Positions 1 through 32,000 of a DNA stretch of 32,000 nucleotides are shown here, piece after piece. The position numbers and the translations under genes were made by a program. A model generated the notes under the pieces. That model was given only the letters and a program-made list of their open reading frames with translations. It searched no databases and was not told where the DNA came from. The DNA is taken from positions 600,001 to 632,000 of the forward strand of contig NC_009776.1 of assembly GCF_000017945.1 (NCBI RefSeq). The letters run 5' to 3'. The number at the start of each line of letters is the position of its first letter. Within the stretch, counting starts at the first letter, position 1. The stretch is from Ignicoccus hospitalis KIN4/I (GTDB lineage: Archaea; Thermoproteota; Thermoprotei_A; Sulfolobales; Ignicoccaceae).

Positions 1-797
1 CCGCCGCGGGGCGGGCGAACGGTTAGCTCGGTCACGTCGGTGCTGACCACTATCTTGAGGTCCTCTAAGGGGACGTTCAACGACGGGCACCAGAGCAAGA
101 GAGTATAAGTGCCCTTATAGAGCCTTACGGACTTGAAGGGGACCGCGTAGAGCCAGTCCGTACCGTTGTATAGGACCCTCTCCGGAGCGCCCAACCTCTC
201 TTGAAACTCCAAAGTCCCCGTGGAGTTGCTCAAACGGGTTTCGCACTTAACGCTTCCCAGCGGAATGAAGGAAGGGACGAAGGTTCCTACCGTAGCCCAG
301 GGCGGGGCGCCCTCGGGCGAGTACCACCCGTTGTCCACCTCCAAGACGCTTATCGCCTTGACCGGTTTGTCACAGCCCACCTTGAAGTACAAGGCCCCGG
401 GGCAGAGGGCGTCGTAGTCGTCTGCTTGGCCTTCGAGCTGGCCGTAGTAGCCCGCGGGGACTAAGGCCTCGCAGCCGTACTGGTCCGCGACCGGAGAGCT
501 CGAGGAGAGCACGAAGTGGTCGAAGCTACAGACCAACTCCTCGCCGTAGTAAACCCTTACGCCGGTCAGCGTTACGGGGTTCTTAACTCGGAGGACCAGC
601 GCCAAAACTTTCCCGTTGGTCGAATCGTAGGCTGGCATTAGGTCGTAAACTCCCGCGGGCGTCGGCAGCTGGGTCGGCAAGGCTAAGCTCGCGACCCTCC
701 CTACGGTGGTATTAACCACTCCCACCACTACCGCTATCAGAGCCACCGATATCGCTATGAGTAACAGCTCGGCCACTATTGAGCTCTGTGCCTTCAC
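1..797 (-). CDS. Partial CDS (3' end runs off the window start): secreted Cys-rich protein with an archaeal class III (prepilin-like) signal peptide
   Basis: Absent from the supplied ORF track because it is open at the window edge. My minus-strand translation from GTG (797-795) reads VKAQSSIVAELLLIAISVALIAVVVGVVNTTVGRVASLALPTQ... and stays open to base 3 (about 265 codons, 6 Cys). GGAGGA lies 4 nt upstream of the GTG, and an in-frame TAG 14 codons upstream limits extension. A short charged N-terminus, KA/Q and about 22 hydrophobic residues fit the PibD/FlaK substrate pattern. Confidence 0.55.
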   Translation of the reverse strand, partial: MKAQSSIVAELLLIAISVALIAVVVGVVNTTVGRVASLALPTQLPTPAGVYDLMPAYDSTNGKVLALVLRVKNPVTLTGVRVYYGEELVCSFDHFVLSSSSPVADQYGCEALVPAGYYGQLEGQADDYDALCPGALYFKVGCDKPVKAISVLEVDNGWYSPEGAPPWATVGTFVPSFIPLGSVKCETRLSNSTGTLEFQERLGAPERVLYNGTDWLYAVPFKSVRLYKGTYTLLLWCPSLNVPLEDLKIVVSTDVTELTVRPPRG

Positions 798-2358
798 TTC
801 GTCCTCCGGGCTTAACGAACTTAGAGGCAATATAAGTCGCTAAGAGCGTGAGCGCCCCCAACGCCGGGTAGAGGTAGGCGAACCCAGCCAAGGGGGCGCA
901 CTTGAGCGCGGGCAGAGGCGAGGGCCTCAAGCTCACCGCGCAGCTGCGCAAGCCTTCCCAACGGGGGACCGACCAGCTGAAGAAGGCCGGTTCGTTGGGA
1001 GGTATGTACTTACCCATAAATACGTTTATAGAGCTCTTCACTTCGTAACGCGACCCGCTGGCGTTCAAGAGCAAGAGCTGCTCGAAGGCCGTCAAGTTGC
1101 CCCGGTAGGTGTAGGTCGCTACGGTCTTCGCCCCCATAACCTTGACTTCGCTCGGGGGTTGGAAGAAATAAGCGTGGACCCACGAGGCGTAAATTAAGGA
1201 AGCGGCGAAGGTCATTGACGTTAACACCATTAAGGAACTGACCGCCTTCCTGTTCTTCCAGAAGTCCGCCAAGGCGAGGGCGAAGGGGGCTACGGCTGTC
1301 GACTCGGGCCTGAGCAACGATGCCGGGCCCAGCAGCCCTAACTTGCTCTTGTCCTTGAGGTACAGTACCAAAGAGAAGTTGAGAGCGCTTAGCGCTTGTG
1401 ACGCGAGGAGGGCCCAGAGCAAGGCTTTCGAGGTCAAGACGTTGGCGAGCGTGTAGTTGTCTATTAGATCTAGGACCGTAACGGCGGTTAAAATTATGAC
1501 TGAAGCGTAGTGGAGGACGAACCGCTTGTCCGCTAGGGGCCCTTCCTTTATTGCCTTAGAGAGGGAGTAAAGGTACACTAACGTTAACGTCGCCGCCACG
1601 GGGGTTTGGATGCCGAAGTAGGGGTTGGGCAAGCCCCCGGCCGGGACGGGGTAAAAGCGGAGCAGCGCAAAGGCCACGTACGCGTTCAAGAAAGCGACTA
1701 CCTTGGACGCCTTGTCGTTGGTATGGAAGAGCAGCGCGAGCGACGCCGGGAGCAAGGCGAGCGAGAGGTGGAACGAGTTAGGCGGTATGGGCAAGCCGTA
1801 AGTTGTGTGGCCGTGGGCGATTGAGGAAAACGCCGTTAGGAAAGCTAAAAACGTGGAGAGCTTCGCGTAAAGCTCATTGAATGTCAGAAAATACGCCAAG
1901 AGCAGCGCAGAAGCGATGGCTAAGAGGGGGTACAGCGAGAAGAACCAGTACCCCCTGAGTACGGAGAAGCCCAACGGAGGAAGCTTGGGAGGGGCGGAGA
2001 CCATGGGGTAGTTCAAGTTCAAGTAGTTTGACCAAACGAACAAGAGGGAAAGCAGAGAGGCCGCGGAGAGCGCGAAGAACCTCCTGTCCCCCTCTTTCAA
2101 CCCTACTAACGCCAACACGAACGCGAACGCGGATATTGTGAAGAAAGGCGTAGTCATCGCAGTTATGACGTTGTGGAAGCTCGGTAGACCGCAGTTGAGC
2201 CAGTACCAGCTCGCTAAGCTCGTCGGCTTGCACGAGAAAGCTTCGTACAAGACGAATGCCGCCGGAAGGACGCTCGAGAGGGAGAGCGCGGCGAGACGTG
2301 GGACCGCGAAGGCTACTATATTCATAACTGCTGATATTATGATTGAGATGTACAACAT
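712..2358 (-). CDS. Polytopic integral membrane protein (about 13-14 predicted TM helices, ~100-aa extracytoplasmic domain before the last helix), function unknown
   Basis: 548-aa ORF with an ATG start (cat at 2356-2358). Hydrophobic segments are near-continuous through residue ~400, followed by a soluble stretch (FFQPPSEVKVMGAKTVATYTYRGNLT...) and a final helix (LAGFAYLYPALGALTLLATYIA). I saw no WWDYG (AglB) or T2SS-F/FlaJ-type cytoplasmic domains. The G/S-rich tail is encoded in the 86-nt overlap with the next gene. Confidence 0.7.
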   Translation of the reverse strand: MLYISIIISAVMNIVAFAVPRLAALSLSSVLPAAFVLYEAFSCKPTSLASWYWLNCGLPSFHNVITAMTTPFFTISAFAFVLALVGLKEGDRRFFALSAASLLSLLFVWSNYLNLNYPMVSAPPKLPPLGFSVLRGYWFFSLYPLLAIASALLLAYFLTFNELYAKLSTFLAFLTAFSSIAHGHTTYGLPIPPNSFHLSLALLPASLALLFHTNDKASKVVAFLNAYVAFALLRFYPVPAGGLPNPYFGIQTPVAATLTLVYLYSLSKAIKEGPLADKRFVLHYASVIILTAVTVLDLIDNYTLANVLTSKALLWALLASQALSALNFSLVLYLKDKSKLGLLGPASLLRPESTAVAPFALALADFWKNRKAVSSLMVLTSMTFAASLIYASWVHAYFFQPPSEVKVMGAKTVATYTYRGNLTAFEQLLLLNASGSRYEVKSSINVFMGKYIPPNEPAFFSWSVPRWEGLRSCAVSLRPSPLPALKCAPLAGFAYLYPALGALTLLATYIASKFVKPGGRSEGTELNSGRAVTHSDIGGSDSGSGGSG

Positions 2359-2438
2359 CTTGAAGCCCCAGAGAGGGACAAAAAGAGAGGTAAATAGGAG
2401 TTAACGAGCTTAAGGTTAGTCTAAGAGGAAAGATCGAG

Positions 2439-2444
2439 AAAAAA
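2439..2444 (-). terminator. Oligo-T (T6 on the minus strand) archaeal-type terminator after the fibre gene
   Basis: A6 on the plus strand at 2439-2444 gives TTTTTT on the coding strand about 10 nt after the TAA stop at 2454-2456. A TATA-like TAAATAGG at 2391-2398 follows, about 33 nt before the membrane-protein ATG. Confidence 0.4.
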
Positions 2445-2453
2445 CAATTGTTG

Positions 2454-3386
2454 TTACGTTATGCTGAGAGGTACGCTGGCCTCCCAGGTGCTGCCGTCGC
2501 TGAAGACCATCTTGACGTCAACGCTCTGCATCACGTTGGGGTTGACGTTGGGGCACCATATCACTACGGCGAAGTTGCTCTGGCTGGCGCTGGCGACGTC
2601 GAAGATGGGCACTCCGTTGTTGTTCTGGGTATCAGGGCTGTAATGAGTATTCACGAACCTGTCGAACTTTATCACGGCACTAGTGTTCCTGAAGTTGGTC
2701 TCCACATAGTTGGTGCTGACGTAGTTGACCTCCCAAGTGCCGGCCAGTATGGTGGCGAAGGGGTACTGGTCATCGAACGATAGTAGTATATCGGGCTTAT
2801 ATTTCTCGCCCGGATGAACTTCACCAGTAACTCCCTTATCGCCACCCAAGTAGCCGCGCGCCGCCGGCTGCGTAGCGAGGTCGCTCTTACCGTGTATGAT
2901 GCCTCCCGGTACTAGGGTCTCGTTATGCGCGTCGAAGTCACTAAGAGTTGAACCGACGAAGCCCCAGAAGACTAGACCGAACGCAGTCAAGCCGCCTATA
3001 GTTTGGCCTATGTGATACTTATCGTCAGCGGTCATAGGGAAGCTGTCGTAGTGGCAGACCACCCTACCTTGGTAGAGCACATCTATGGCGTCTATGGTAA
3101 TAGCTTGGCCACCTTGCAACACTTGAGCAGGCGGCTGGAAGCTGAGTATCAGGACGGCCTTAGAGCGGTCGAAGCTATCCTTGCTTATGGTAGTACCGAC
3201 GTTAGTGGCCGGCCTGGCCCAAGTGGCTTGGATGAGTGTTAAGCTCTTGCCGGTGACTTGAGTGCCAGCCACGTTGGCGCTCAGCCCGCTGACCCAAGTG
3301 TAGAGGAGCACGGCAGCGGCTACGGCGATCAGTATCAGCAGCAAGGTCGCTATTACGGGGGAGACACCCTTCCTCGCGATCTTCAT
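2454..3386 (-). CDS. Iho670-type cell-surface fibre protein (archaeal type IV pilin/archaellin-like, class III signal peptide)
   Basis: 310-aa ORF with an ATG start. The N-terminus MKIARKG/VSPVIATLLLILIAVAAAVLLYTWVSGL is a textbook archaeal pilin N-terminal domain (PF07790-like) with a KG-V prepilin peptidase site. From memory it matches the Iho670 fibre subunit of Ignicoccus hospitalis. The C-terminal ~270 aa are beta-rich and contain 2 Cys. Confidence 0.9.
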   Translation of the reverse strand: MKIARKGVSPVIATLLLILIAVAAAVLLYTWVSGLSANVAGTQVTGKSLTLIQATWARPATNVGTTISKDSFDRSKAVLILSFQPPAQVLQGGQAITIDAIDVLYQGRVVCHYDSFPMTADDKYHIGQTIGGLTAFGLVFWGFVGSTLSDFDAHNETLVPGGIIHGKSDLATQPAARGYLGGDKGVTGEVHPGEKYKPDILLSFDDQYPFATILAGTWEVNYVSTNYVETNFRNTSAVIKFDRFVNTHYSPDTQNNNGVPIFDVASASQSNFAVVIWCPNVNPNVMQSVDVKMVFSDGSTWEASVPLSIT

Positions 3387-3423
3387 GTTCTCACTCTCTC
3401 GATGACAACGGCGGGGTAGCGGG

Positions 3424-3433
3424 TTTTAAGATA
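3424..3433 (-). promoter_or_regulatory. Candidate TATA box for the fibre gene
   Basis: The minus strand reads TATCTTAAAA, ending 37 nt upstream of the ATG. The predicted short leader carries GAGAGAGTGAG (partial SD). Confidence 0.35.
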
Positions 3434-3452
3434 GGGAGTTGCTCTGGTATGC

Positions 3453-3457
3453 AAAAA
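3453..3457 (-). terminator. Oligo-T (T5) tract after the CoADR-like gene
   Basis: The minus strand reads CCAATTTTTGC about 14 nt after the stop at 3471-3473. Confidence 0.3.
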
Positions 3458-3470
3458 TTGGATAAAGAGA

Positions 3471-4823
3471 TTAGCGCAGTTCCGAATACAAGAGCCTCGC
3501 CGCGGTGACCAAGGGGTCCCACACGGGGGCCAAGGGAGGGACGTAGCCTATGTCAGAGAAGAACAAGTCCCTAACGGTCCCCCTCTTAGTTAGCAACGTC
3601 GCAACGGCGTCCACCCTCCCCTTGACCCCCTCTGGGCCCACCACTTGAACGCCCAACACGGTGCCGTCCTCGGCGGCCACCAGCTTGACGTGGGTGAACT
3701 GGGAGCCGGGGTAGTAGTGGGCCCTCGTCCTAGCCTTCACGAACGAGGACTTAACCTTAAAGCCTAAGGCCTTCGCCTCCTCCTCGGTCAGGCCCGTCCG
3801 GCCGATCTCCAGGCCCGAGGCGACCGTGATCCCGGTACAAGCCACTCCCGGAAACGGGACCCTTTTGCCGCTGGCGCTGAGGCCGGCGACGAGCCCCATC
3901 TTGTTGGCCGGGGGAGCGAAGGGACACCAAGCCTCGGTCCCCGTGTGGACGAGCCAGCTCTCCGCCACGTCCCCGGCGGCGTAGACGTCGGGCAAGTTGG
4001 TCTCCATGTACTCGTTCACTTTGATTCCCCCGAACTTACCCAACTTCACGCCCAACCTCTTAGCGAGCTCTGCGTTGGGCTCTACCCCCACTGCCACCAC
4101 TACCGCTTGAGCCTTTATCACCTCTCCGTCGCTCAGCTCCACGCCTTCGACCCGGTCCTTCCCGAGTATCTTGGTTACAGTTACGCCCTTGTGGAGCCTT
4201 ATCCCTACGTTCTTAAGGTGCTCCTCCACGAGCTCGCTCATCTCCGGGTCCAAGCTCTTGCGAAGGGCGCGCGAGCGGACCACCAAGTGCACCTCGCGCT
4301 CGGAGTCCCTCAGCTCCGCAGCGACCTCTACGCCGGTGAACCCCGCGCCCACCACCACTACCTCCTTCGCGTCCTTCAGCTCCTCCCTAGCGGCTATCCC
4401 GCTCTCTACCGTGTGAAGCTTTATGACTCCTCTGAGGTCCTCGCCTTCGACGCCCAACGACTTGGGTCGCGCCCCGGTGGCCAATATGAGCTTGTCCCAC
4501 TTGTACTCCTTCTTTTCCCCGTTCTCAATGACGGTTACCGTTCTCTTGTGGTAATCGGCGTCCACGACCTTAGCGTGCGTGTGTACGTCTATACCCCTCT
4601 TTTCCCTGAACACTTCGACAGGATAGTAAACCAAGTCGTCGGGTTCCTTTACCTTGCCCACGATGAAGTACGGGAGGCCGCAAGGGGCGTAGGAGACGTA
4701 ACCTGAGGCCTCGAAAACCCTAACCGTCCAGTCCTTGTGTATCCTTTTCACGCGGGAAGCAGCGCTCATGCCCGCGGCGCCGCCGCCTACGACTACGACC
4801 TCCACGTGGGGCACCGGGCCCAC
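3471..4823 (-). CDS. Pyridine nucleotide-disulfide oxidoreductase of the CoA-disulfide reductase / NADH oxidase / NAD(P)H sulfur oxidoreductase family
   Basis: 450 aa. It has an N-terminal FAD Rossmann motif (VVVVGGGAAG), the family redox-Cys motif SYAPCGLPY (compare SFANCGLPY in CoADR), a second GxGxxG (VVVGAGFTGVE) and AAGD. There is no rhodanese extension. The start is uncertain: GTG at 4823, 4814 or 4805. A TATA-like TAAATTATTTT (minus strand, 4834-4845) favours a leaderless start at 4814 or 4805. Confidence 0.85.
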   Translation of the reverse strand: MGPVPHVEVVVVGGGAAGMSAASRVKRIHKDWTVRVFEASGYVSYAPCGLPYFIVGKVKEPDDLVYYPVEVFREKRGIDVHTHAKVVDADYHKRTVTVIENGEKKEYKWDKLILATGARPKSLGVEGEDLRGVIKLHTVESGIAAREELKDAKEVVVVGAGFTGVEVAAELRDSEREVHLVVRSRALRKSLDPEMSELVEEHLKNVGIRLHKGVTVTKILGKDRVEGVELSDGEVIKAQAVVVAVGVEPNAELAKRLGVKLGKFGGIKVNEYMETNLPDVYAAGDVAESWLVHTGTEAWCPFAPPANKMGLVAGLSASGKRVPFPGVACTGITVASGLEIGRTGLTEEEAKALGFKVKSSFVKARTRAHYYPGSQFTHVKLVAAEDGTVLGVQVVGPEGVKGRVDAVATLLTKRGTVRDLFFSDIGYVPPLAPVWDPLVTAARLLYSELR

Positions 4824-4862
4824 GAGCGCGCGGAAAATAATTTACGCGTTTTTACTAAACGG

Positions 4863-5318
4863 TTAGGATTGCTCCATCTTCTGTCTCAAGCAAGAGCCCA
4901 TGACCTTGGCTAAGTACAGCATCACTCCGAGGCCCGCAGTTATGTCTGGATCTTTCATCACCTTCAGTAGGCCCAAGAGGCCCACAGGCTTGGCGTGCTT
5001 TAAGAAGTCCGGAGAATTCAAGGCCTTCATTGTACACTCCGACATGGCTTCTACGTTCTCCTTGAACACTATAGGATCTACGTCTTCAAGGGCGTTTAAT
5101 GCGGCGTCCGCGGCCGCCATCGCGTGGTGCATCCTTCTGTCGTTAGCCCCTAGCTCCAGCACCTCCTCGCCCTTCTCGGCCAAAGCGACTGCTATCCCCA
5201 GCAGGCCGGTCTCTTGGAGCTTTGCTATCGCGTCCGCCAACCTTTCTATAGCCTTCGCCAGCTCCTCTATTTTCTCCGCCTCTAACTTTTCCAACACCTT
5301 AGACAGCTCCTCACTCAC
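4863..5318 (-). CDS. DUF1641-family protein (accessory partner of SQR/NDH-II-like flavoproteins)
   Basis: 151 aa with a GTG start. The N-terminus is helical and the C-terminal GLLGLLKVMKDPDITAGLGVMLYLAKVMG matches the DUF1641 signature as I remember it. AGGTGA overlaps the upstream gene's stop 6 nt before the GTG, suggesting translational coupling. Confidence 0.7.
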   Translation of the reverse strand: MSEELSKVLEKLEAEKIEELAKAIERLADAIAKLQETGLLGIAVALAEKGEEVLELGANDRRMHHAMAAADAALNALEDVDPIVFKENVEAMSECTMKALNSPDFLKHAKPVGLLGLLKVMKDPDITAGLGVMLYLAKVMGSCLRQKMEQS

Positions 5319-5324
5319 GTCCTA

Positions 5325-6482
5325 TCACCTCAGGGCGTCTATCCAGCCCAAGTAAAAGGCTAATTTCATGAACTTGATCATTGGGCTCTGGGCCGTTACG
5401 TACATCTTCTGAGTAGGTCCGTTGTGATCTATGTCGAAGGTGACCATCATTCCGGTGGGGCCGAAGTCCGCCACTGCGACTATCTCGTCGGGGAAGAGCA
5501 CGGTGCCCCTTACGCCGGTTAGGTCGGATATGAGCGCGTCGGCCGCCGAGACCGCAGCGGCGTGGGAGAATATGCCAGCTATGGGGAAGTTCACACAAGG
5601 CATAGCGGCGTCGGTCGGCACGAAGACGTTCCTATACTTCGGGTTGCGGAACTCCGGGTAGGTAGTGGCCAACACCTTCTTGTTGTTCGGACAGACCAGC
5701 TCTGGCCTGTTCTTTGCGAACTCCGGCACCTTAACTGGAGGCACGTATATCAATAGGTCATACTTGAGTGTGCTACCGTCTGTAAACACAATCTCTTTCT
5801 CTCTGACCTCCTTGGCCTCCTTGCCCGGGTGGTAAATTATTCCCAGCTTGTTGTGTATCCTCCGGAACTGCCTAAAGACGTCCTTGAACATCTGGCCCAT
5901 CTGCTTCTCGTCGAATACCGTAACCAAGTGGACCTCCGAGCGGGGGTCCTTCCTCATTGCGAAGTACTTCAACTTGCCGGCCATCTCGAACGGGTAACAC
6001 CCGCACCGGAAGGGGAGGCCCGGGACGAGCATCACCACCCTTCCGCCCTTGAACTTGCTGAGGGCCTCTCTCATCCTCTTGGCGCCTTCCAAGCTGTAGT
6101 TGTGGTAGCCGTAGCGACTGAGGCCGGGGACCGCTTCGTGATCGTAGCTGACCCCAGAACCTATGAACAAGTAGTCGTATTCTATTGTCTTCCCACCTTT
6201 AGTCTTGAGCTGCTGCTTGGCGGGGTCTACGTCTACGACCTCATCTATGATCAGCTCGGCGCCGTACCTCTTAGCGATGTTAGCGACGGGGGCCTTGAGC
6301 TGGTCTTCCCTAACTTCGCCCAAGGCGAAGTCCGCGAAGAGGGGAGGCATGTAGTGCCACTCGTCTCTGTTTATTATCGTAATTTGGAGCTTGTCTTGCA
6401 GTTCCGGCGGCCCCTCTCGGAGCCGCCTCAGGGCGACGAGGGTCGACACTCCCCCGCCGAGGAACACCACGCGTTCGGGCAA
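5325..6482 (-). CDS. Sulfide:quinone oxidoreductase-like / type II NADH dehydrogenase-like FAD flavoprotein
   Basis: 385 aa with a TTG start directly before the Rossmann motif (MPERVVFLGGGVSTL). WHYMPPLF resembles the SQR H-Y-x-Q-P motif. Candidate redox Cys lie in PFRCGCYPFE and AAMPCVNFP. The size and the DUF1641 neighbour are typical of archaeal SQR-like enzymes. Confidence 0.75.
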   Translation of the reverse strand: MPERVVFLGGGVSTLVALRRLREGPPELQDKLQITIINRDEWHYMPPLFADFALGEVREDQLKAPVANIAKRYGAELIIDEVVDVDPAKQQLKTKGGKTIEYDYLFIGSGVSYDHEAVPGLSRYGYHNYSLEGAKRMREALSKFKGGRVVMLVPGLPFRCGCYPFEMAGKLKYFAMRKDPRSEVHLVTVFDEKQMGQMFKDVFRQFRRIHNKLGIIYHPGKEAKEVREKEIVFTDGSTLKYDLLIYVPPVKVPEFAKNRPELVCPNNKKVLATTYPEFRNPKYRNVFVPTDAAMPCVNFPIAGIFSHAAAVSAADALISDLTGVRGTVLFPDEIVAVADFGPTGMMVTFDIDHNGPTQKMYVTAQSPMIKFMKLAFYLGWIDALR

Positions 6483-12534: not shown

Positions 12535-13950
12535 TTGGCAGTACCGTCGGTTAAGGGCAAGGAGTACGAGTCCGTAAGCGAGATCAGAGGTCAGCTGTTG
12601 GTGGTCGAAGGCGTAAGCGACGCGGGCTACGGCGAGCTGGTAGACATAGAGATGCCGAGCGGCGAGAAGAGGAGGGGAATAGTCCTAGAGACCGGGAAGG
12701 GGCTAGCGGTGGTCCAAGTCTTCGAAGGGACCACCGGCATATCGCCCGCCGGCACGAAGGTCCGCTTCACCGGTAGGATACTCGAGATGGGCGTTTCCGA
12801 GGACATGTTGGGCCGAATAATGAACGCCTTAGGAGAGCCCATCGACGGAGGAGCTCCGATAAAGGCAGTAGAAAAGAGGAACGTGTGGGGCGAGCCCATT
12901 AACCCTTACGCTAGGGAGTACCCAGACGAGTTCATCGAAACTGGAATAAGCGCAATAGACGGTATGAACTCCCTGGTAAGGGGCCAGAAGCTGCCCATAT
13001 TCTCCGGCTCCGGTCTCCCCCACAACAAGCTGGCGGCCCAGATAGCTAGGCAAGCCACGGTGAGGGGAGAGGAGGAGTCCTTCGCCGTGGTCTTCGCTGC
13101 GGTGGGCATCCAGTACGACGAGCTCTTGTTCTTCAAAAAGGCGTTCGAAGAGACCGGGGCCATATCTAGGACTGCCATGTTCGTCAGCTTGGCCAACGAG
13201 CCCGCAATGATGAAGATAGTCACGCCCAGGGCCGCGCTCACCCTCGCCGAGTACTTGGCCTTCCAAAAGGACATGCACGTCTTGGTTATAATAACTGACA
13301 TGACCAACTACTGTGAGGCCCTAAGGGAGATCTCCGCGAGCAGGGAGGAGGTGCCGAGCAGGCAAGGTTACCCCGGTTACATGTACACCGACTTGGCGAC
13401 GATATACGAAAGGGCTGGAAGGGTTAAGGGAAGCAAGGGTTCAATAACCCAAATGCCCATACTCACGATGCCTAACGACGACATAACCCACCCCATACCG
13501 GACCTCACGGGCTACATCACCGAAGGTCAGATAGTCCTCTCGAGGGACTTGCACAACAAGGGCATATACCCGCCGATAAACGTACTAATGAGCTTGTCAA
13601 GGCTCATGAGGGACGGAATAGGCAAGGGTAAGACTAGGGAAGACCACCCGGACGTGGCCAACCAGCTGTTCGCGGCCTACTCGAGGGCCGTAGAGCTGAG
13701 GGGCTTAGCCGCGATAGTCGGCGAGGAGAGCCTGAGCGAGGTCGACCGCAAGTACTTGAGGTTCGGTGAGGCGTTCGAGCAGAAGTTCTTAAAGCAAGAT
13801 TACTACGAGAGGAGGACCATAGAGCAGACCCTAGACTTGGCGTGGGAGGTTCTCTCAATACTGCCGGAGGAGGAGCTGACCAAGATAAGGCCAGAGTACA
13901 TAAAGAAGTACCACCCCAAGTACAGAGTGAAGGCCGCGTCCCAGAAGTAA
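12535..13950 (+). CDS. atpB: A-type (A1AO) ATP synthase subunit B
   Basis: 471 aa with a TTG start. Typical B-subunit blocks are present: [57 protein letters not shown] and [12 protein letters not shown]. Confidence 0.95.
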
Positions 13951-13966
13951 CGTGAGGTGCTAAGCT

Positions 13967-14611
13967 TTGAGCTTCCCCGGCAGCAGGAGGGTTTTACCCA
14001 CAAAGATAAACCTCATCCGCTTGAAGCAGAGAAAGAAGGTAGTAGAGAGGATCAGAAAGCTCCTAGAGGACAAAAGGGACATTCTCTTAATGTACTTGCG
14101 CAAGGCCGTCGCCGATTACCAGAAGTACTACGACGCCTACTCCGAACACCTAGAGAGGGCTTACAGCTACTTAATTATGGCTGAGGTTCAGAGCGGCGAG
14201 TCAGCACTCAAACAAGAAGTGGCCTACGTACCGGAAGACTTGACCGCGAAGATCTACGCGCGCACGGCCTTCGGGGTCAAGATACCGGTCGTGGAGTTCG
14301 CCAGAACGGAAGTTAAGGGCGGGGCCATCTCTAACCTCTACTCTTCGCCCTATTTAGACAAAGCAGCGAAGGAGTTCGAAGAGGCTATGAAGTACTTAAA
14401 CAAGGCTATAAACTCCGAGATGAGTATATACAGAATAATGAACGAGTTACGGAGGACCCAGAGACTCATAAACGCAGTCAAGTATTCCATCTTGCCAGAA
14501 ATAGAAAACAACATAAAGTTCATCAAGAGGTCGCTGGACGACCAACAAAGAGAGGAGTTCGTAAGGTTGAAGCTGATAAGGAGTAAGTTGCAGAGCAGGA
14601 GGGTGGCATAA
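13967..14611 (+). CDS. atpD: A-type ATP synthase subunit D (central stalk)
   Basis: 214 aa with a TTG start and GTGAGGTG 7 nt upstream. VLPTKINLIRLKQRKKVVERIRKLLEDKRDILL is the V/A-ATPase D N-terminal helix, and the C-terminus is coiled-coil. Confidence 0.9.
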   Translation: MSFPGSRRVLPTKINLIRLKQRKKVVERIRKLLEDKRDILLMYLRKAVADYQKYYDAYSEHLERAYSYLIMAEVQSGESALKQEVAYVPEDLTAKIYARTAFGVKIPVVEFARTEVKGGAISNLYSSPYLDKAAKEFEEAMKYLNKAINSEMSIYRIMNELRRTQRLINAVKYSILPEIENNIKFIKRSLDDQQREEFVRLKLIRSKLQSRRVA

Positions 14612-14775
14612 TGAGCGCGGCGTTCCCCTCGAAGGAGGAGTTGTTGAAGGAGCTCCAAGCGACCGTAGAAGGCGCGTTCGCTAACTCGACTAACAAAGTA
14701 AAGAAGAAAGCAGAAGAGGTAAAGACGAAGTACCTTGCTAAGGTAAGTGAGCTCTGTCGTTCGGTCTCTCTCTAA
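14611..14775 (+). CDS. Unlisted 54-aa ORF, candidate small A-ATPase-associated subunit
   Basis: Read by eye. The ATG at 14611 overlaps the atpD stop (ATAATG) and the TAA is at 14773-14775. Translation: MSAAFPSKEELLKELQATVEGAFANSTNKVKKKAEEVKTKYLAKVSELCRSVSL, which is helical and charged. It falls below the ORF-track length cutoff. Confidence 0.45.
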   Translation: MSAAFPSKEELLKELQATVEGAFANSTNKVKKKAEEVKTKYLAKVSELCRSVSL

Positions 14776-14784
14776 CCTTTAGAA

Positions 14785-14795
14785 GTATTTTTAAG
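14785..14795 (+). promoter_or_regulatory. Candidate internal TATA box (GTATTTTTAAG) ahead of the proteolipid gene
   Basis: It lies about 38 nt upstream of the GTG at 14833. GGAGGG (14819-14824) is 8 nt before that GTG. Confidence 0.35.
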
Positions 14796-14832
14796 TTCAA
14801 ACAGTACGTTGCTCGAACGGAGGGATCAGAGC

Positions 14833-15174
14833 GTGAAGGCCGAATTGATGCCCAAAAGAGCGATAAGGAGCGTCCTACTGTCCATACTCTTCGTAACGCT
14901 CGTAGGCGCGAGCGCAGCCCTCGCCGCCGAGATGGGCGAGACGTCCCTAGGAACGGGCATGATGACCGGCCTCAAGGCCGTCGGCGCCGGCCTCGCCTTG
15001 CTCGGAGGCACTATCGGCGCCGGCTACGCCCTGGGCGCCACCGGCGCCGCCGGCATCGCCGTGATAAGCGAGAAGCCCGAAGAGTTCGGTAGGGTCCTGC
15101 TCTTCATAGGTATCGCAGAGACGCCGGCTATCTACGGAATAGCTATCGCGATAGTCATACTCTTCGCAATATAA
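14833..15174 (+). CDS. atpK: A-type ATP synthase proteolipid subunit c (K)
   Basis: A Gly/Ala-rich hairpin (GLKAVGAGLALLGGTIGAGYALGATGAAGIAVISEKPE, then LLFIGIAETPAIYGIAIAIVILFAI) carries the ion-binding Glu in IAETPAIYG. Possible starts are TTG 14809 (track), GTG 14833 (best SD) and ATG 14848. Confidence 0.85.
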   Translation: MKAELMPKRAIRSVLLSILFVTLVGASAALAAEMGETSLGTGMMTGLKAVGAGLALLGGTIGAGYALGATGAAGIAVISEKPEEFGRVLLFIGIAETPAIYGIAIAIVILFAI

Positions 15175-18170: not shown

Positions 18171-18605
18171 GTGAAGACCGTAGAGCTTACAAACGGGTCG
18201 AAGAAAAAGGTTGAAGACAGGATTGTGGGGCGGCACGTCTACGGTAACTTGTACGGCGTCGACCCGGCGAAGCTCTGGGACGAGGAGGGGTTGAAAGAAC
18301 TCGTAAGGGAGGCTGCAGAGGTAGCAAACATGAAGTTGGTAGAGGTGAGGTCGTGGAAGTTCACCGGGTACCACGGGGGCGTATCAGTGATGGCACTAGT
18401 TCTAGAAAGCCACATAACTATACATACTTGGCCGGATTACGAGTACGCGACCGTCGACGTGTACACTTGCGGCGAGAGGAGCGACCCGTGGAGGGCGTTC
18501 GAACTAATCGTCGAGAGGTTAGAGCCGGAGGACTACGTGGTCCACTACAGCGACCGCAGTAGCCCTAAGAGGCCCTTGGGGGGCACAGCGGGTCGAATCC
18601 AGTAG
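18171..18605 (+). CDS. speH: Pyruvoyl-dependent decarboxylase of the archaeal S-adenosylmethionine decarboxylase (SpeH) family
   Basis: 144 aa with a GTG start and AGGAG upstream. The self-cleavage and active-site block LVLESHITIHTWPDYEYATVDVYTCG is present. An alternative start at GTG 18225 would give MGRHVYGNLYG. Confidence 0.85.
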   Translation: MKTVELTNGSKKKVEDRIVGRHVYGNLYGVDPAKLWDEEGLKELVREAAEVANMKLVEVRSWKFTGYHGGVSVMALVLESHITIHTWPDYEYATVDVYTCGERSDPWRAFELIVERLEPEDYVVHYSDRSSPKRPLGGTAGRIQ

Positions 18606-19251: not shown

Positions 19252-20373
19252 GTGGGCGACGAGACCTTGAGGAGCGCAGTAGCGCTGCTGGCGCTATCGG
19301 CCATGGCGTTGGCCGCCGCTACGATAACCCTTACAGTAAACGACGGCAAGGTCGCCCTCTCTAAGATCGTCGTAGAAGCTGAGCGGGAAAAGTTCCCGTT
19401 CCAGTACGGAGAGAGTTTAGTGTCAAGCCAGCTGGTCGCGGTCGACAAGCTCTGGGGTGAGGGCTCGAGCGTCAAGGAGTCCTTTTCAACCAACAGCGCA
19501 CTCACCCTCAGCTCTTCGCCCTTGAAGAAGGGACGCGCCGAAATAACGCTGAGTATAACGTCCGACCCGACGACTGTGAGCTTACACAGCAGGATTAAGG
19601 GTTCCGTCCTAGTATTGTTCTTTTATATACGCAACATGGACATAGTCCTTAACTCTGTTATAAACAAGCAAGACAACTCAGGGAACTTGACGATAGACGG
19701 CTTCGCCGAGCTCCCGTCTCCTAAGGTAACAGTGGAGAAGATGTTAAACACAATGATACCTAAGATAAAAGCTGGTATCGAGGATTTGGGACTAAAGGTA
19801 GTGGAGTTGAAGTACGAAGTTACTGGCAAGTCCCTACCTCCCACTAGCAAGGTCAAAATGTACGTAATCTTGAAAGGAGAAAGGGATAAGATAGTTGAAT
19901 CGTTGAACAGTCTAGGGATACCAACATCGGAACTGTTGAACTTAATAAACATGAACGATACTGTAGTCAGAAAGGTTAACGCCCAAGCAAACCTGGAACT
20001 GTCCCTTAAGAGGTCCGGAAAAGAGCTCTTCACAGAAATAAGGGCCAAAGTGAGGGGAGAAGGCGTCTACCTTAACGATACCGTCCGTTACGAGCTCCGG
20101 AGCCGCTTGGAGCCCGTACTGAAGGCCCTCAACGTTACGGAGCTAGAGGGCTACTTGCTGCCTACCAATAACGTGACCAGCTCCCTCACGGTCAACGTTA
20201 CAGGCAATAAAGTTAAAGCCAACTTCGTGTTCACGAACGTATACTTTAACAACACCGAGGAGTTGTGGAAGACGCTGAAAAGAATTGAAGATGAACTGGG
20301 CGTGAACTTCGAGGTCCTCTGTAGCGGAAAGGTATATGACATAGAAAGGGCTGCGTCCTCTTGCAAGGGCTGA
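19252..20373 (+). CDS. Secreted or membrane-anchored hypothetical protein, rich in N-glycosylation sequons
   Basis: 373 aa with a GTG start. The N-terminus LRSAVALLALSAMALAAATITL is signal-peptide-like. There are 7 N-x-S/T sequons, 5 of them in the last ~110 aa, and a C-terminal Cys pair (LCSG...ASSC). I recognise no family. A T5 tract follows directly after the stop (20374-20378). Confidence 0.6.
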   Translation: MGDETLRSAVALLALSAMALAAATITLTVNDGKVALSKIVVEAEREKFPFQYGESLVSSQLVAVDKLWGEGSSVKESFSTNSALTLSSSPLKKGRAEITLSITSDPTTVSLHSRIKGSVLVLFFYIRNMDIVLNSVINKQDNSGNLTIDGFAELPSPKVTVEKMLNTMIPKIKAGIEDLGLKVVELKYEVTGKSLPPTSKVKMYVILKGERDKIVESLNSLGIPTSELLNLINMNDTVVRKVNAQANLELSLKRSGKELFTEIRAKVRGEGVYLNDTVRYELRSRLEPVLKALNVTELEGYLLPTNNVTSSLTVNVTGNKVKANFVFTNVYFNNTEELWKTLKRIEDELGVNFEVLCSGKVYDIERAASSCKG

Positions 20374-31625: not shown

Positions 31626-32000
31626 TTAGAAACGTATTGCCGTTACCTCGAAGGCGGCAGCGACCAAGAGGTACAGTACTGATTTAACCAGATCCGGTTT
31701 CCTCCGCGTCGTCGCTAAAGCGTATGCATAGAGTTCCAGAAGCGTGTGGGCGCCGAGTACTACATTTAGGGGGTAACCTCGGGAGAGCGAGGAGCCTACG
31801 AGGGCCGTGTAGCTGACCGCGAAGCCGTAGTACCCCTTCCCCAAAAGGGCGCTCAATATCAGAATCAATATATTATGTTGGAAGATCCTCGCGATAGCCA
31901 AGAGGGGGTCCGAGCGCCTCGCAAAGTCAGCTATTTCCACTATTTCCCTTTTAATTGCGGAAGGGACGTCACACTTGAACAAAGAAACCAGCGCGACCGT
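31626..32000 (-). CDS. Partial CDS: DUF95/SpoIIM-like integral membrane protein (5' end probably beyond the window)
   Basis: The frame is still open at base 32000 (upstream codons read TVALVS). The TTG at 31982 is only the first in-window start. IFQHNILILILSALLG ... AHTLLELYAYALA resembles the DUF95 pattern. Confidence 0.5.
   Translation of the reverse strand, partial: TVALVSLFKCDVPSAIKREIVEIADFARRSDPLLAIARIFQHNILILILSALLGKGYYGFAVSYTALVGSSLSRGYPLNVVLGAHTLLELYAYALATTRRKPDLVKSVLYLLVAAAFEVTAIRF

What the first reader, a model, noticed from the sequence alone, without database searches (positions are those of the whole stretch)
1..3470. Fibre gene sits in a three-gene cell-surface module with no recognisable pilus/archaellum assembly genes nearby
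Three co-directional minus-strand genes sit together: the Iho670-type fibre subunit (3386-2454), a ~14-TM membrane protein of unknown family (2358-712) and a second protein with a prepilin-like signal peptide (797 to beyond base 1). Type IV-pilus-like filaments normally need a PilB/FlaI ATPase, a PilC/FlaJ platform and a prepilin peptidase, and none of these lies in the visible flank. The fibre gene appears to have its own TATA box and a T6 terminator, which would allow high monocistronic expression. The two downstream genes overlap each other and have a separate TATA-like element. Together they could be an uncharacterised anchor, minor-subunit or modification module for the fibre. That would be relevant in an organism with an outer cellular membrane the fibre must cross.
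Basis: partly seen in the sequence, partly recalled or inferred. Interest (0 to 1): 0.7.

Follow-up and report, generated by a model that had tools for sequence, protein, structure and literature searches.

The report
Ignicoccus fibre gene and partner genes
The gene for the known adhesion fibre of Ignicoccus is followed in almost all relatives by a gene for a many-pass membrane protein unlike any known protein, and often by a hidden second fibre-like subunit, which makes these two the first concrete candidates for helpers that build or anchor the fibre.

Summary
The window is Ignicoccus hospitalis. Gene 2454-3386(-) is Iho670, identical to PDB 5KYH.

- **Igni_0669, 712-2358(-):** a polytopic membrane protein. 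It belongs to an orphan family with only 10 representatives among 1.84 billion proteins. It has no Pfam, NCBIfam or PDB sequence hit. A confident AlphaFold model (pLDDT 86) finds no Foldseek match.
- **Igni_0668, 797 to past base 1 (-):** a full-length but distant paralogue of Iho670 (hhalign 99.8%, E 1e-29). It has a class III (prepilin) N-terminus that the 2011 annotation (242 aa) cut off.
- **Assembly genes:** no pilus ATPase, platform or prepilin peptidase lies in the 32 kb window or in 10 kb beyond it. This is normal for archaeal pilins, which often work in trans.
- **Conservation:** the fibre-to-membrane gene pair is adjacent and co-directional in 10 distinct loci, including all three cultured Ignicoccus species, despite rearranged flanks. 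It is unlinked in two MAGs. The third gene is adjacent in 4 lineages.
- **Expression signals:** a TATA box, a Shine-Dalgarno motif and a T6 run after the fibre stop codon are conserved.

Best reading: a lineage-specific accessory module made of a minor pilin and an outward-facing membrane cofactor. This function is inferred and has not been shown.

The parts
2454..3386 (-). Igni_0670 (Iho670), the major subunit of the adhesion fibre. [quoted passage not shown]
   Evidence: Residues 8-310 are 100% identical to the 5KYH chain. TIGR02537 arch_flag_Nterm scores 39.8 bits against a cutoff of 20. About 27 full-length homologues were found, all Ignicoccus-like.
3423..3430 (-). TATA-box-like element CTTAAAAC, about 40 nt upstream of the fibre ATG.
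   Evidence: Positionally conserved as CTTATAAG, CTTAAAAC or CTTTTAAC in 8 related loci. Promoter function is inferred.
3391..3396 (-). Shine-Dalgarno-like GAGTGA upstream of the fibre ATG.
   Evidence: GAGGTGA or GAGTGA is conserved at -12 to -5 in 8 loci.
2439..2444 (-). T6 run 10 nt after the fibre stop codon, a candidate archaeal oligo-T terminator.
   Evidence: A run of six or more T lies in the spacer within 40 nt of the stop in 8 of 10 fibre loci, against 0.5% of random 60-nt windows. Terminator function is inferred from general knowledge of archaeal termination.
2390..2397 (-). TATA-like CTATTTAC, about 35 nt upstream of the membrane-protein start. It may be a second, weaker promoter.
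   Evidence: Read from the sequence. A/T-rich elements sit at similar distances in most relatives but are not clearly conserved. I. islandicus has only a 33-nt spacer.
712..2358 (-). Igni_0669, an orphan polytopic membrane protein of 548 aa. It has 13 TM helices, a re-entrant hairpin and a beta ectodomain at 405-488. All conserved motifs lie on the predicted outer face.
   Evidence: No Pfam, NCBIfam or PDB hit. The family has 10 members among 1.84 billion representatives. AlphaFold pLDDT 86.4 and pTM 0.87. No Foldseek hit below E 0.2. Topology.
712..797 (-). 86-nt overlap of Igni_0669 and Igni_0668. It encodes most of the unconserved, low-confidence C-terminal tail of Igni_0669 (about residues 514-548).
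   Evidence: The tail is absent from homologues and has pLDDT below 50. In I. pacificus the two genes do not overlap.
803..807 (-). GGAGG Shine-Dalgarno motif, 5 nt before GTG 797.
   Evidence: Read from the sequence.
1..797 (-). Igni_0668, an Iho670 paralogue of 268 aa (the last 3 codons and the stop lie beyond base 1). It has a class III signal-like N-terminus MKA|QSSIVAE and is a candidate minor pilin.
   Evidence: BLASTP against Iho670 E 1e-7. hhalign family against family 99.8%, E 1e-29, covering residues 1-243 of the first member, the I. hospitalis Igni_0668 protein (profile positions 1-252). All 4 family members hit TIGR02537, best E 3.7e-7. The 2011 annotation lists 242 aa, which omits the N-terminal helix, and 3 spectra.

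Best explanation
The three genes are a lineage-specific accessory module of the Iho670 fibre, which is an archaeal type IV pilus-like filament.

1. Iho670 is the major subunit. It is transcribed at high level from its own TATA promoter and mostly terminated at the T6 run.
2. Low-level read-through, or a weak second promoter, supplies the two downstream genes.
3. Igni_0668 is a pilin-like paralogue. It is inserted in the membrane, cut by the cell's single prepilin peptidase (Igni_1405) and built into the fibre in small amounts as a minor subunit, for example as a primer/tip or as a basal unit.
4. Igni_0669 is a membrane protein whose conserved, disulfide-stapled loops and small beta domain face away from the cytoplasm. 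It most likely binds the outer (Ig-like) domains of membrane-held pilins, or the growing fibre. It would then act as a fibre-specific docking, assembly or anchoring cofactor.
5. The ATPase and TadC-like platform encoded elsewhere do the polymerisation in trans.

Shown here: gene identities, the paralogy, the conserved adjacency, the orphan status of Igni_0669 and the conserved signals. Inferred: the topology, the expression pattern and every functional step.
For: - Fibre identity.
- Adjacency: the pair is adjacent and co-directional in 10 distinct loci. These are I. hospitalis, I. pacificus L007, I. islandicus L018, and the MAG or metagenome loci L003, L004, L006=L020, L005=L023, L021, L028 and L029. 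Fibre identity across them is 43-65% and membrane-protein identity 25-38%. Flanks differ between loci.
- I. islandicus has only a 33-nt spacer without a T-run, which implies co-transcription there.
- The Igni_0668 family is homologous to Iho670 over its whole length and carries the archaellin/pilin N-terminal domain. It is adjacent in 4 lineages.
- Spectral counts of 241 (Igni_0670), 0 (Igni_0669) and 3 (Igni_0668) fit a major subunit with minor components.
- A TATA box, a Shine-Dalgarno motif and a T6 run are conserved around the fibre gene.
- In Igni_0669, conserved residues cluster in the predicted outer loops. These include the W51/W53/N55/C56/G57 loop, PPLG130, R135, R234 to Q251, C473/C487 and a conserved NxT sequon at 421-423. 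Cytoplasmic loops are at most 8 residues.
- Family-wide Lys/Arg enrichment in the predicted cytoplasmic loops fits this orientation.
- Trans-acting ATPase/TadC modules are established for archaeal pilins (PMC4858521).
Against: - There is no experimental link of either downstream protein to fibres.
- Purified fibres were reported as a single 33-kDa protein (review PMC4187195).
- Igni_0669 was not detected in proteomics.
- The membrane gene is unlinked from the fibre gene in MAG GCA_054016895.1 (L022 and L024) and stands alone in L026.
- A second fibre copy in I. pacificus has no partner.
- The third gene is missing next to the pair in I. islandicus, L003, L006/L020 and L028.
- Part of the adjacency could be inherited synteny within one narrow clade.
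- The I. hospitalis Igni_0668 N-terminus scores below the TIGR02537 cutoff (7.4 against 20 bits).
Confidence: 0.5

Rival explanations
1. Igni_0669 is a pilin-modifying enzyme, for example a glycosyl or lipid transferase acting on the outer face. This would be analogous to the polytopic TfpO/PilO or TfpW genes that sit directly downstream of pilA in Pseudomonas aeruginosa.
For: The gene order is the same: a major pilin, a terminator, then a polytopic membrane protein. Conserved arginines (R135, R234, R478) and aromatic residues lie on the predicted outer face. This would suit binding of a phosphorylated lipid carrier. The Pseudomonas arrangement is quoted from general knowledge and was not tested here.
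Against: No hit to Wzy_C, PMT, STT3 or any other Pfam or NCBIfam model in any of the 10 members. No Foldseek match to WaaL, OST or GT-C structures; STT3 appears only at E 1.4 or higher with TM 0.16. The family has no invariant Asp, Glu or His. Iho670 was PAS-negative according to the review PMC4187195.
Confidence: 0.15
2. The adjacency is only inherited gene order in a narrow clade. Igni_0669 would then be an unrelated membrane protein, such as a transporter or envelope component, with no role in the fibre.
For: All known members come from one lineage. The membrane homologue lies apart from the fibre gene in L024 and stands alone in L026. The upstream NSR gene is also conserved next to the fibre in 4 loci, so some plain synteny exists. 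Igni_0669 gave 0 spectra.
Against: The pair survives where both flanks have changed, as in I. islandicus, L003, L004 and L028. It stays on the same strand and separated by 33-240 nt. No conserved polar residues typical of transporters lie inside the TM helices; conservation is concentrated in the outer loops.
Confidence: 0.2
3. Igni_0668 is not a minor subunit of the Iho670 fibre. It would instead be the subunit of a separate, rarely made filament, or a pilin-like surface protein of the bindosome type.
For: It shares only about 20-23% identity with Iho670. It has a distinct N-terminal helix with a conserved Glu at +7. It is absent next to the pair in several genomes.
Against: It stays next to the fibre/membrane pair in 4 lineages, even when inverted. 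Its abundance is very low. Only one fibre type has been described for I. hospitalis in the reviews read.
Confidence: 0.1

Closest known systems
Archaeal type IV pilus and archaellum loci (Aap, Ups and Epd pili; fla/arl operons)
   Same: They have class III signal-peptide subunits cut by an A24 peptidase. They encode a major subunit plus paralogous minor subunits. The major-subunit gene has its own strong expression signals. Pilins can use ATPase/TadC modules in trans (PMC4858521).
   Different: No ATPase or TadC/FlaJ gene lies in cis. The associated polytopic protein has no T2SSF domain, and its cytoplasmic loops of at most 8 residues could not engage an ATPase. It belongs to an orphan family with no fold match.
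Pseudomonas aeruginosa pilA-tfpO/tfpW type accessory genes (from general knowledge, not tested here)
   Same: A polytopic inner-membrane protein gene lies immediately downstream of the major pilin gene. Its conserved residues sit in periplasm-facing loops.
   Different: No sequence or structural similarity to the O-antigen ligase or GT-C families. The family has no invariant acidic or histidine residue. There is no evidence that Iho670 is glycosylated.
Minor pilins and minor archaellins (for example M. maripaludis EpdD/EpdE, PMC3875500; FlaB3)
   Same: Igni_0668 is a low-abundance paralogue of the major subunit. It has a class III signal-like N-terminus and is encoded close to the major subunit gene.
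   Different: Incorporation into the fibre and processing have not been shown. The original start-codon call hid the N-terminal helix. The family has a conserved Glu at +7 that the major subunit lacks.

Membership tests
Iho670 fibre subunit (PDB 5KYH) | Sequence identity to the solved Iho670 chain | tested here: met
   Gene 2454-3386: residues 8-310 are 100% identical to the 303 residues of the 5KYH chain, E 2.7e-204.
Archaellin / archaeal type IV pilin N-terminal domain (TIGR02537; class III signal peptide) | A short positively charged leader, a [KR][GA] cleavage motif and a hydrophobic helix of about 20 residues that score above the model cutoff | tested here: met
   Iho670 scores 39.8 bits against a cutoff of 20. 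Cleavage after G7 is consistent with the 5KYH chain starting at V8.
Archaellin / archaeal type IV pilin N-terminal domain (TIGR02537), applied to Igni_0668 | The same N-terminal domain | tested here: inconclusive
   All 4 family members hit the model, best E 3.7e-7. The I. hospitalis protein scores only 7.4 bits, below the cutoff of 20. The motif KA|QS fits the class III pattern, and hhalign aligns the helix to that of Iho670. Cleavage was not tested.
Iho670-type pilin family (N-helix plus Ig-like outer domain), applied to Igni_0668 | Full-length homology to the Iho670 family, including the conserved Cys pair (Iho670 C111/C278) | tested here: met
   hhalign 99.8%, E 1.1e-29, 248 aligned columns. 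The VC... and WCP motifs are aligned. BLASTP E 1e-7.
PilC / FlaJ / TadC platform proteins (T2SSF, PF00482), applied to Igni_0669 | T2SSF domain repeats with sizeable cytoplasmic domains | tested here: not met
   No Pfam hit at E up to 10 in any of the 10 members. Predicted cytoplasmic loops are at most 8 residues. No Foldseek match.
GT-C glycosyltransferases, oligosaccharyltransferases and O-antigen-ligase-like enzymes (STT3/AglB, PMT, Wzy_C), applied to Igni_0669 | The family HMM or fold, plus conserved catalytic acidic or His residues in the outer loops | tested here: not met
   No HMM hit. Yeast STT3 is the only such match, at E 1.4-1.7 and TM 0.16. There is no invariant D, E or H among the 10 members.
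Prepilin peptidase (Peptidase_A24) or secretion ATPase (T2SSE) encoded in cis | Presence of such a gene in the neighbourhood | tested here: not met
   None in the window ORFs or in L001, which covers about 10 kb on each side of the module.

The most novel reading that the evidence does not exclude
The Igni_0669 family is a previously unseen fold. On this reading it is the lineage-specific piece that lets a type IV pilus-like fibre be anchored in, or guided through, the unique two-membrane envelope of Ignicoccus. It might be part of the basal anchoring body, or of the cylindrical complex seen where the fibre leaves the cell (as cited in PMC5468417). Igni_0668 would be the matching adaptor or primer subunit. 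My evidence does not exclude this. The family is confined to the fibre-bearing lineage, it is almost always encoded right after the fibre gene, its conserved surface faces outward, and it matches nothing known.
Probability: 0.15. Interest if true: 0.8.

Novelty: new variant of a known kind. Interest (0 to 1): 0.55.

Why it matters
Iho670 fibres are structurally solved. How they are assembled, anchored and passed through the inner membrane, the wide intermembrane compartment and the outer cellular membrane of Ignicoccus is still unknown. Reviews have pointed to this gap (PMC2910488; PMC5468417).

No paper in the searchable library mentions Igni_0669 or Igni_0668. This work names two specific, conserved candidates:
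- an orphan membrane protein with a confident model and no known fold relative;
- a cryptic second pilin hidden by a wrong start codon.

Both can be tested directly with antibodies, mass spectrometry of purified fibres and in vitro peptidase assays. The work also corrects the annotation of Igni_0668. If the functional link fails, the result is still a small, tidy case of conserved synteny around a known gene.

Tried and rejected
- Pfam and NCBIfam scans of Igni_0669, alone and for all 10 family members at E up to 10, gave nothing consistent.
- A profile search of PDB sequences gave 0 hits at E up to 10.
- Foldseek of the confident model against the PDB and BFVD gave best E 0.2 and TM at most 0.2.
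- The first AlphaFold run, with 3 sequences, was poor (pLDDT 55). It was replaced by the 10-sequence run.
- A test for an internal repeat between the two halves of the TM domain was negative.
- A word-indexed protein search with the 10-member profile returned only the 3 proteins already known.
It was repeated with 6 sequences and gave 1 new locus.
- I tried to read Müller 2009, Meyer 2014 and Yu 2012 for statements on the neighbouring genes. None of them is held.
- The 2026 preprint has no supplementary files held.
- Igni_0667, beyond the window, looks cytoplasmic and unrelated.
- The sigma-70 promoter and intrinsic-terminator scanner was not used, because it does not model archaeal signals.
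- Rejected: Igni_0669 as a divergent FlaJ/PilC, because it has no T2SSF domain and only tiny cytoplasmic loops.
- Rejected: the missing assembly genes as something remarkable, because trans-acting modules are the norm.

Full report
**1. The observation**

The window carries three co-directional minus-strand ORFs at the stated positions. Their identities are as follows.

- **Fibre gene, 2454-3386.** Residues 8-310 of its product are identical to the 303-residue chain of PDB 5KYH, 'Iho670'. The window is therefore Ignicoccus hospitalis and the gene is Igni_0670. The protein carries the archaellin/type IV pilin N-terminal domain (TIGR02537, 39.8 bits against a cutoff of 20).
- **Igni_0669, 712-2358.** This is the downstream 548-aa ORF.
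- **Igni_0668, 797 to beyond base 1.** The supplementary proteome table of PMC3149612 lists both downstream genes as 'hypothetical'. It gives 0 spectra for Igni_0669 and 3 for Igni_0668, against 241 for Iho670. It gives Igni_0668 a length of only 242 aa.

**2. No assembly genes nearby, and why that is ordinary**

- Pfam scans of the other window ORFs find the following: A1A0 ATP synthase subunits, aminotransferase, porphobilinogen deaminase, PolB, FEN1, CDC48, AcnX, TIM, SBDS and MoaA-like proteins.
- Precomputed Pfam for the I. hospitalis contig L001, which reaches 10 kb past window base 1, finds NSR, DUF1641, HypF, RIO1, eIF1A, S6e, fumarase, Cas_APE2256 and others.
- None of these is a T2SSE ATPase, a T2SSF platform or an A24 peptidase.
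- This is correct as an observation but unremarkable. The archaeal T4P census describes stand-alone pilins served in trans by ATPase/TadC pairs (PMC4858521).
- The census lists one clade-4 ATPase for I. hospitalis. The peptidase is Igni_1405 (PMC4187195).

**3. The third gene is a hidden pilin paralogue**

- Read from GTG 797, which lies 5 nt after a GGAGG motif, the product is 268 aa. It begins MKA|QSSIVAELLLIAISVALIAVVV.
- BLASTP against Iho670 gives 23% identity, E 1e-7.
- Homologues recovered from I. pacificus (L007) and from MAGs (L005/L023, L021) begin RKLG|ISSIIAE, MKAG|ISNIVTE and MGRG|ISNLVTE.
- All four family members hit TIGR02537, best E 3.7e-7. The I. hospitalis member alone scores 7.4 bits, below the cutoff.
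- Profile-profile comparison of this family with the Iho670 family gives 99.8% probability and E 1.1e-29 over 248 columns. The alignment includes the N-helix and the shared Cys-containing motifs.
- The older start calls (242 and 251 aa) cut off the helix. That is why the protein carried no signal or TM flag in the 2011 table.

**4. The membrane protein is an orphan**

- HMMER against 1.84 billion cluster representatives finds only 10 family members.
- There is no Pfam, NCBIfam or PDB-sequence hit for any member.
- With the 10-sequence alignment, AlphaFold gives pLDDT 86.4 and pTM 0.87.
- Foldseek finds nothing better than E 0.2 and TM 0.2 in the PDB or BFVD.
- The model helices and the family-wide Lys/Arg distribution suggest this topology:
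  - the N-terminus lies outside;
  - there are 13 TM helices;
  - a re-entrant hairpin spans 339-369;
  - a beta domain at 405-488 lies outside;
  - a last TM helix spans 491-514;
  - the tail lies in the cytoplasm.
- The conserved positions all fall in predicted outer segments. They are C43, the W51/W53/N55/C56/G57 loop, PPLG130, R135, G188, R234, P246, Q251, an NxT sequon at 421-423, and C473/C487/P489/L490.
- Cytoplasmic loops are at most 8 residues. There is no invariant acidic or His residue.
- This argues against a PilC/FlaJ-like platform and against a GT-C or ligase-type enzyme. It argues for an outward-facing binding surface. The topology and that reading are inference.
- The last ~35 residues of the I. 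hospitalis protein are unconserved and of low confidence. Most of this tail is encoded by the 86-nt overlap with Igni_0668.

**5. Conservation of the arrangement**

Iho670 homologues number about 27 full-length proteins at 41-65% identity. They include I. islandicus and I. pacificus.

tblastn of the three proteins against all fetched loci shows the membrane-gene homologue directly downstream of the fibre gene, on the same strand, in 10 distinct loci:
- I. hospitalis;
- I. pacificus (L007);
- I. islandicus (L018);
- L003, L004, L006=L020, L005=L023, L021, L028 and L029.

Flanking genes differ between these loci. An NSR gene lies upstream in four of them. Shikimate dehydrogenase, RIO2 and others flank the pair elsewhere.

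There are exceptions:
- a second, stand-alone fibre copy in I. pacificus (L008);
- one MAG in which the fibre (L022) is followed by an amino-acid permease, while a divergent membrane homologue sits elsewhere (L024);
- a membrane homologue with no fibre gene beside it (L026).

The Igni_0668-like gene follows the pair on the same strand in I. hospitalis and I. pacificus. It lies convergent to the pair in L005/L023 and L021. It is absent next to the pair in I. islandicus, L003, L006/L020 and L028.

**6. Expression signals**

- A TATA-like octamer sits about 40 nt upstream of the fibre ATG, and a GAGGTGA/GAGTGA motif sits at -12 to -5. Both are positionally conserved in 8 loci.
- A run of six or more T lies in the spacer within 40 nt of the fibre stop codon in 8 of 10 loci. 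Only 0.5% of random 60-nt windows of the same loci contain such a run.
- I. islandicus lacks this T-run and has only a 33-nt spacer, which implies co-transcription there.
- The second TATA-like element (2390-2397) is plausible but unproven.

**7. Interpretation**

The best-supported explanation is a lineage-specific accessory module made of a major pilin, an outward-facing orphan membrane cofactor and a minor pilin paralogue. It would use the peptidase and the ATPase/TadC pair encoded elsewhere.

My estimates are:
- about 0.7 that Igni_0669 works in fibre biology at all;
- about 0.75 that Igni_0668 is a processed pilin-like protein;
- about 0.5 for the explanation as a whole;
- about 0.4 for the specific docking/anchoring mechanism.

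The rivals are given in the Rival explanations section with what would refute each:
- a pilin-modifying enzyme, 0.15;
- mere inherited synteny, 0.2;
- Igni_0668 as the subunit of a separate structure, 0.1.

**8. Novelty and score**

The fibre itself is well known. The absence of assembly genes in cis is ordinary.

Three things appear to be new relative to the literature I could search:
- the conserved pairing with an orphan membrane family that has a confident model and no fold match;
- the recognition of Igni_0668 as a mis-started Iho670 paralogue;
- the footprinted promoter and terminator.

Function remains untested, and the family is confined to one small lineage. I rate the finding as a new variant of a known kind, with interest 0.55.

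Noticed in passing
L001 14634-15365; L020 17775-18419; L024 7416-8222: A Cas_APE2256 (CARF-type) gene lies a few genes beyond the module in I. hospitalis and in L020. It directly abuts the divergent membrane homologue P0045, which is not linked to a fibre gene, in L024. This is probably a remnant of ancestral gene order.
   Followed up: no
L008 9995-10918: I. pacificus has a second Iho670 paralogue (46% identity). It stands alone, with no T-run after the stop and no membrane partner.
   Followed up: partly
L002 11279-12033, also 3265-5474: In one public assembly of an I. hospitalis-like strain (Logan ERR9765779), Igni_0668 is split by a frameshift. HypF is also split and RIO1 is shortened. This looks like assembly or sequencing error rather than biology.
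   Followed up: no
window 712-816: The C-terminal ~35 residues of Igni_0669 are absent from all homologues and have pLDDT below 50. Most of this tail is encoded by the overlap with the 5' end of Igni_0668, so it looks like a by-product of that overlap, which is specific to I. hospitalis.
   Followed up: yes
window 3471-6482: The NSR-type pyridine nucleotide-disulfide oxidoreductase gene just upstream of the fibre gene keeps that position in L020, L021 and L023. It does not in I. islandicus, L003 or L004. In I. hospitalis and L020 it is itself preceded by a DUF1641 gene and a second Pyr_redox_2 gene.
   Followed up: no
window 12535-15174: Genes for A1A0 ATP synthase subunits B, D and c. A T6 run follows the c-subunit gene. 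Other T5-T6 runs follow the ORFs ending at 18605, 20373 and 21172.
   Followed up: no
window 19252-20373 (+) and 31626-31982 (-): ORFs of 373 aa and 118 aa with no Pfam hit.
   Followed up: no
Iho670 family alignment A2, residues 13-32: The N-terminal helix ATLLLILIAVAAAVLLYTWV is invariant in 13 homologues that are otherwise 43-65% identical. The Igni_0668 family has a related but distinct helix, with a conserved Glu at +7 where Iho670 has Thr.
   Followed up: partly
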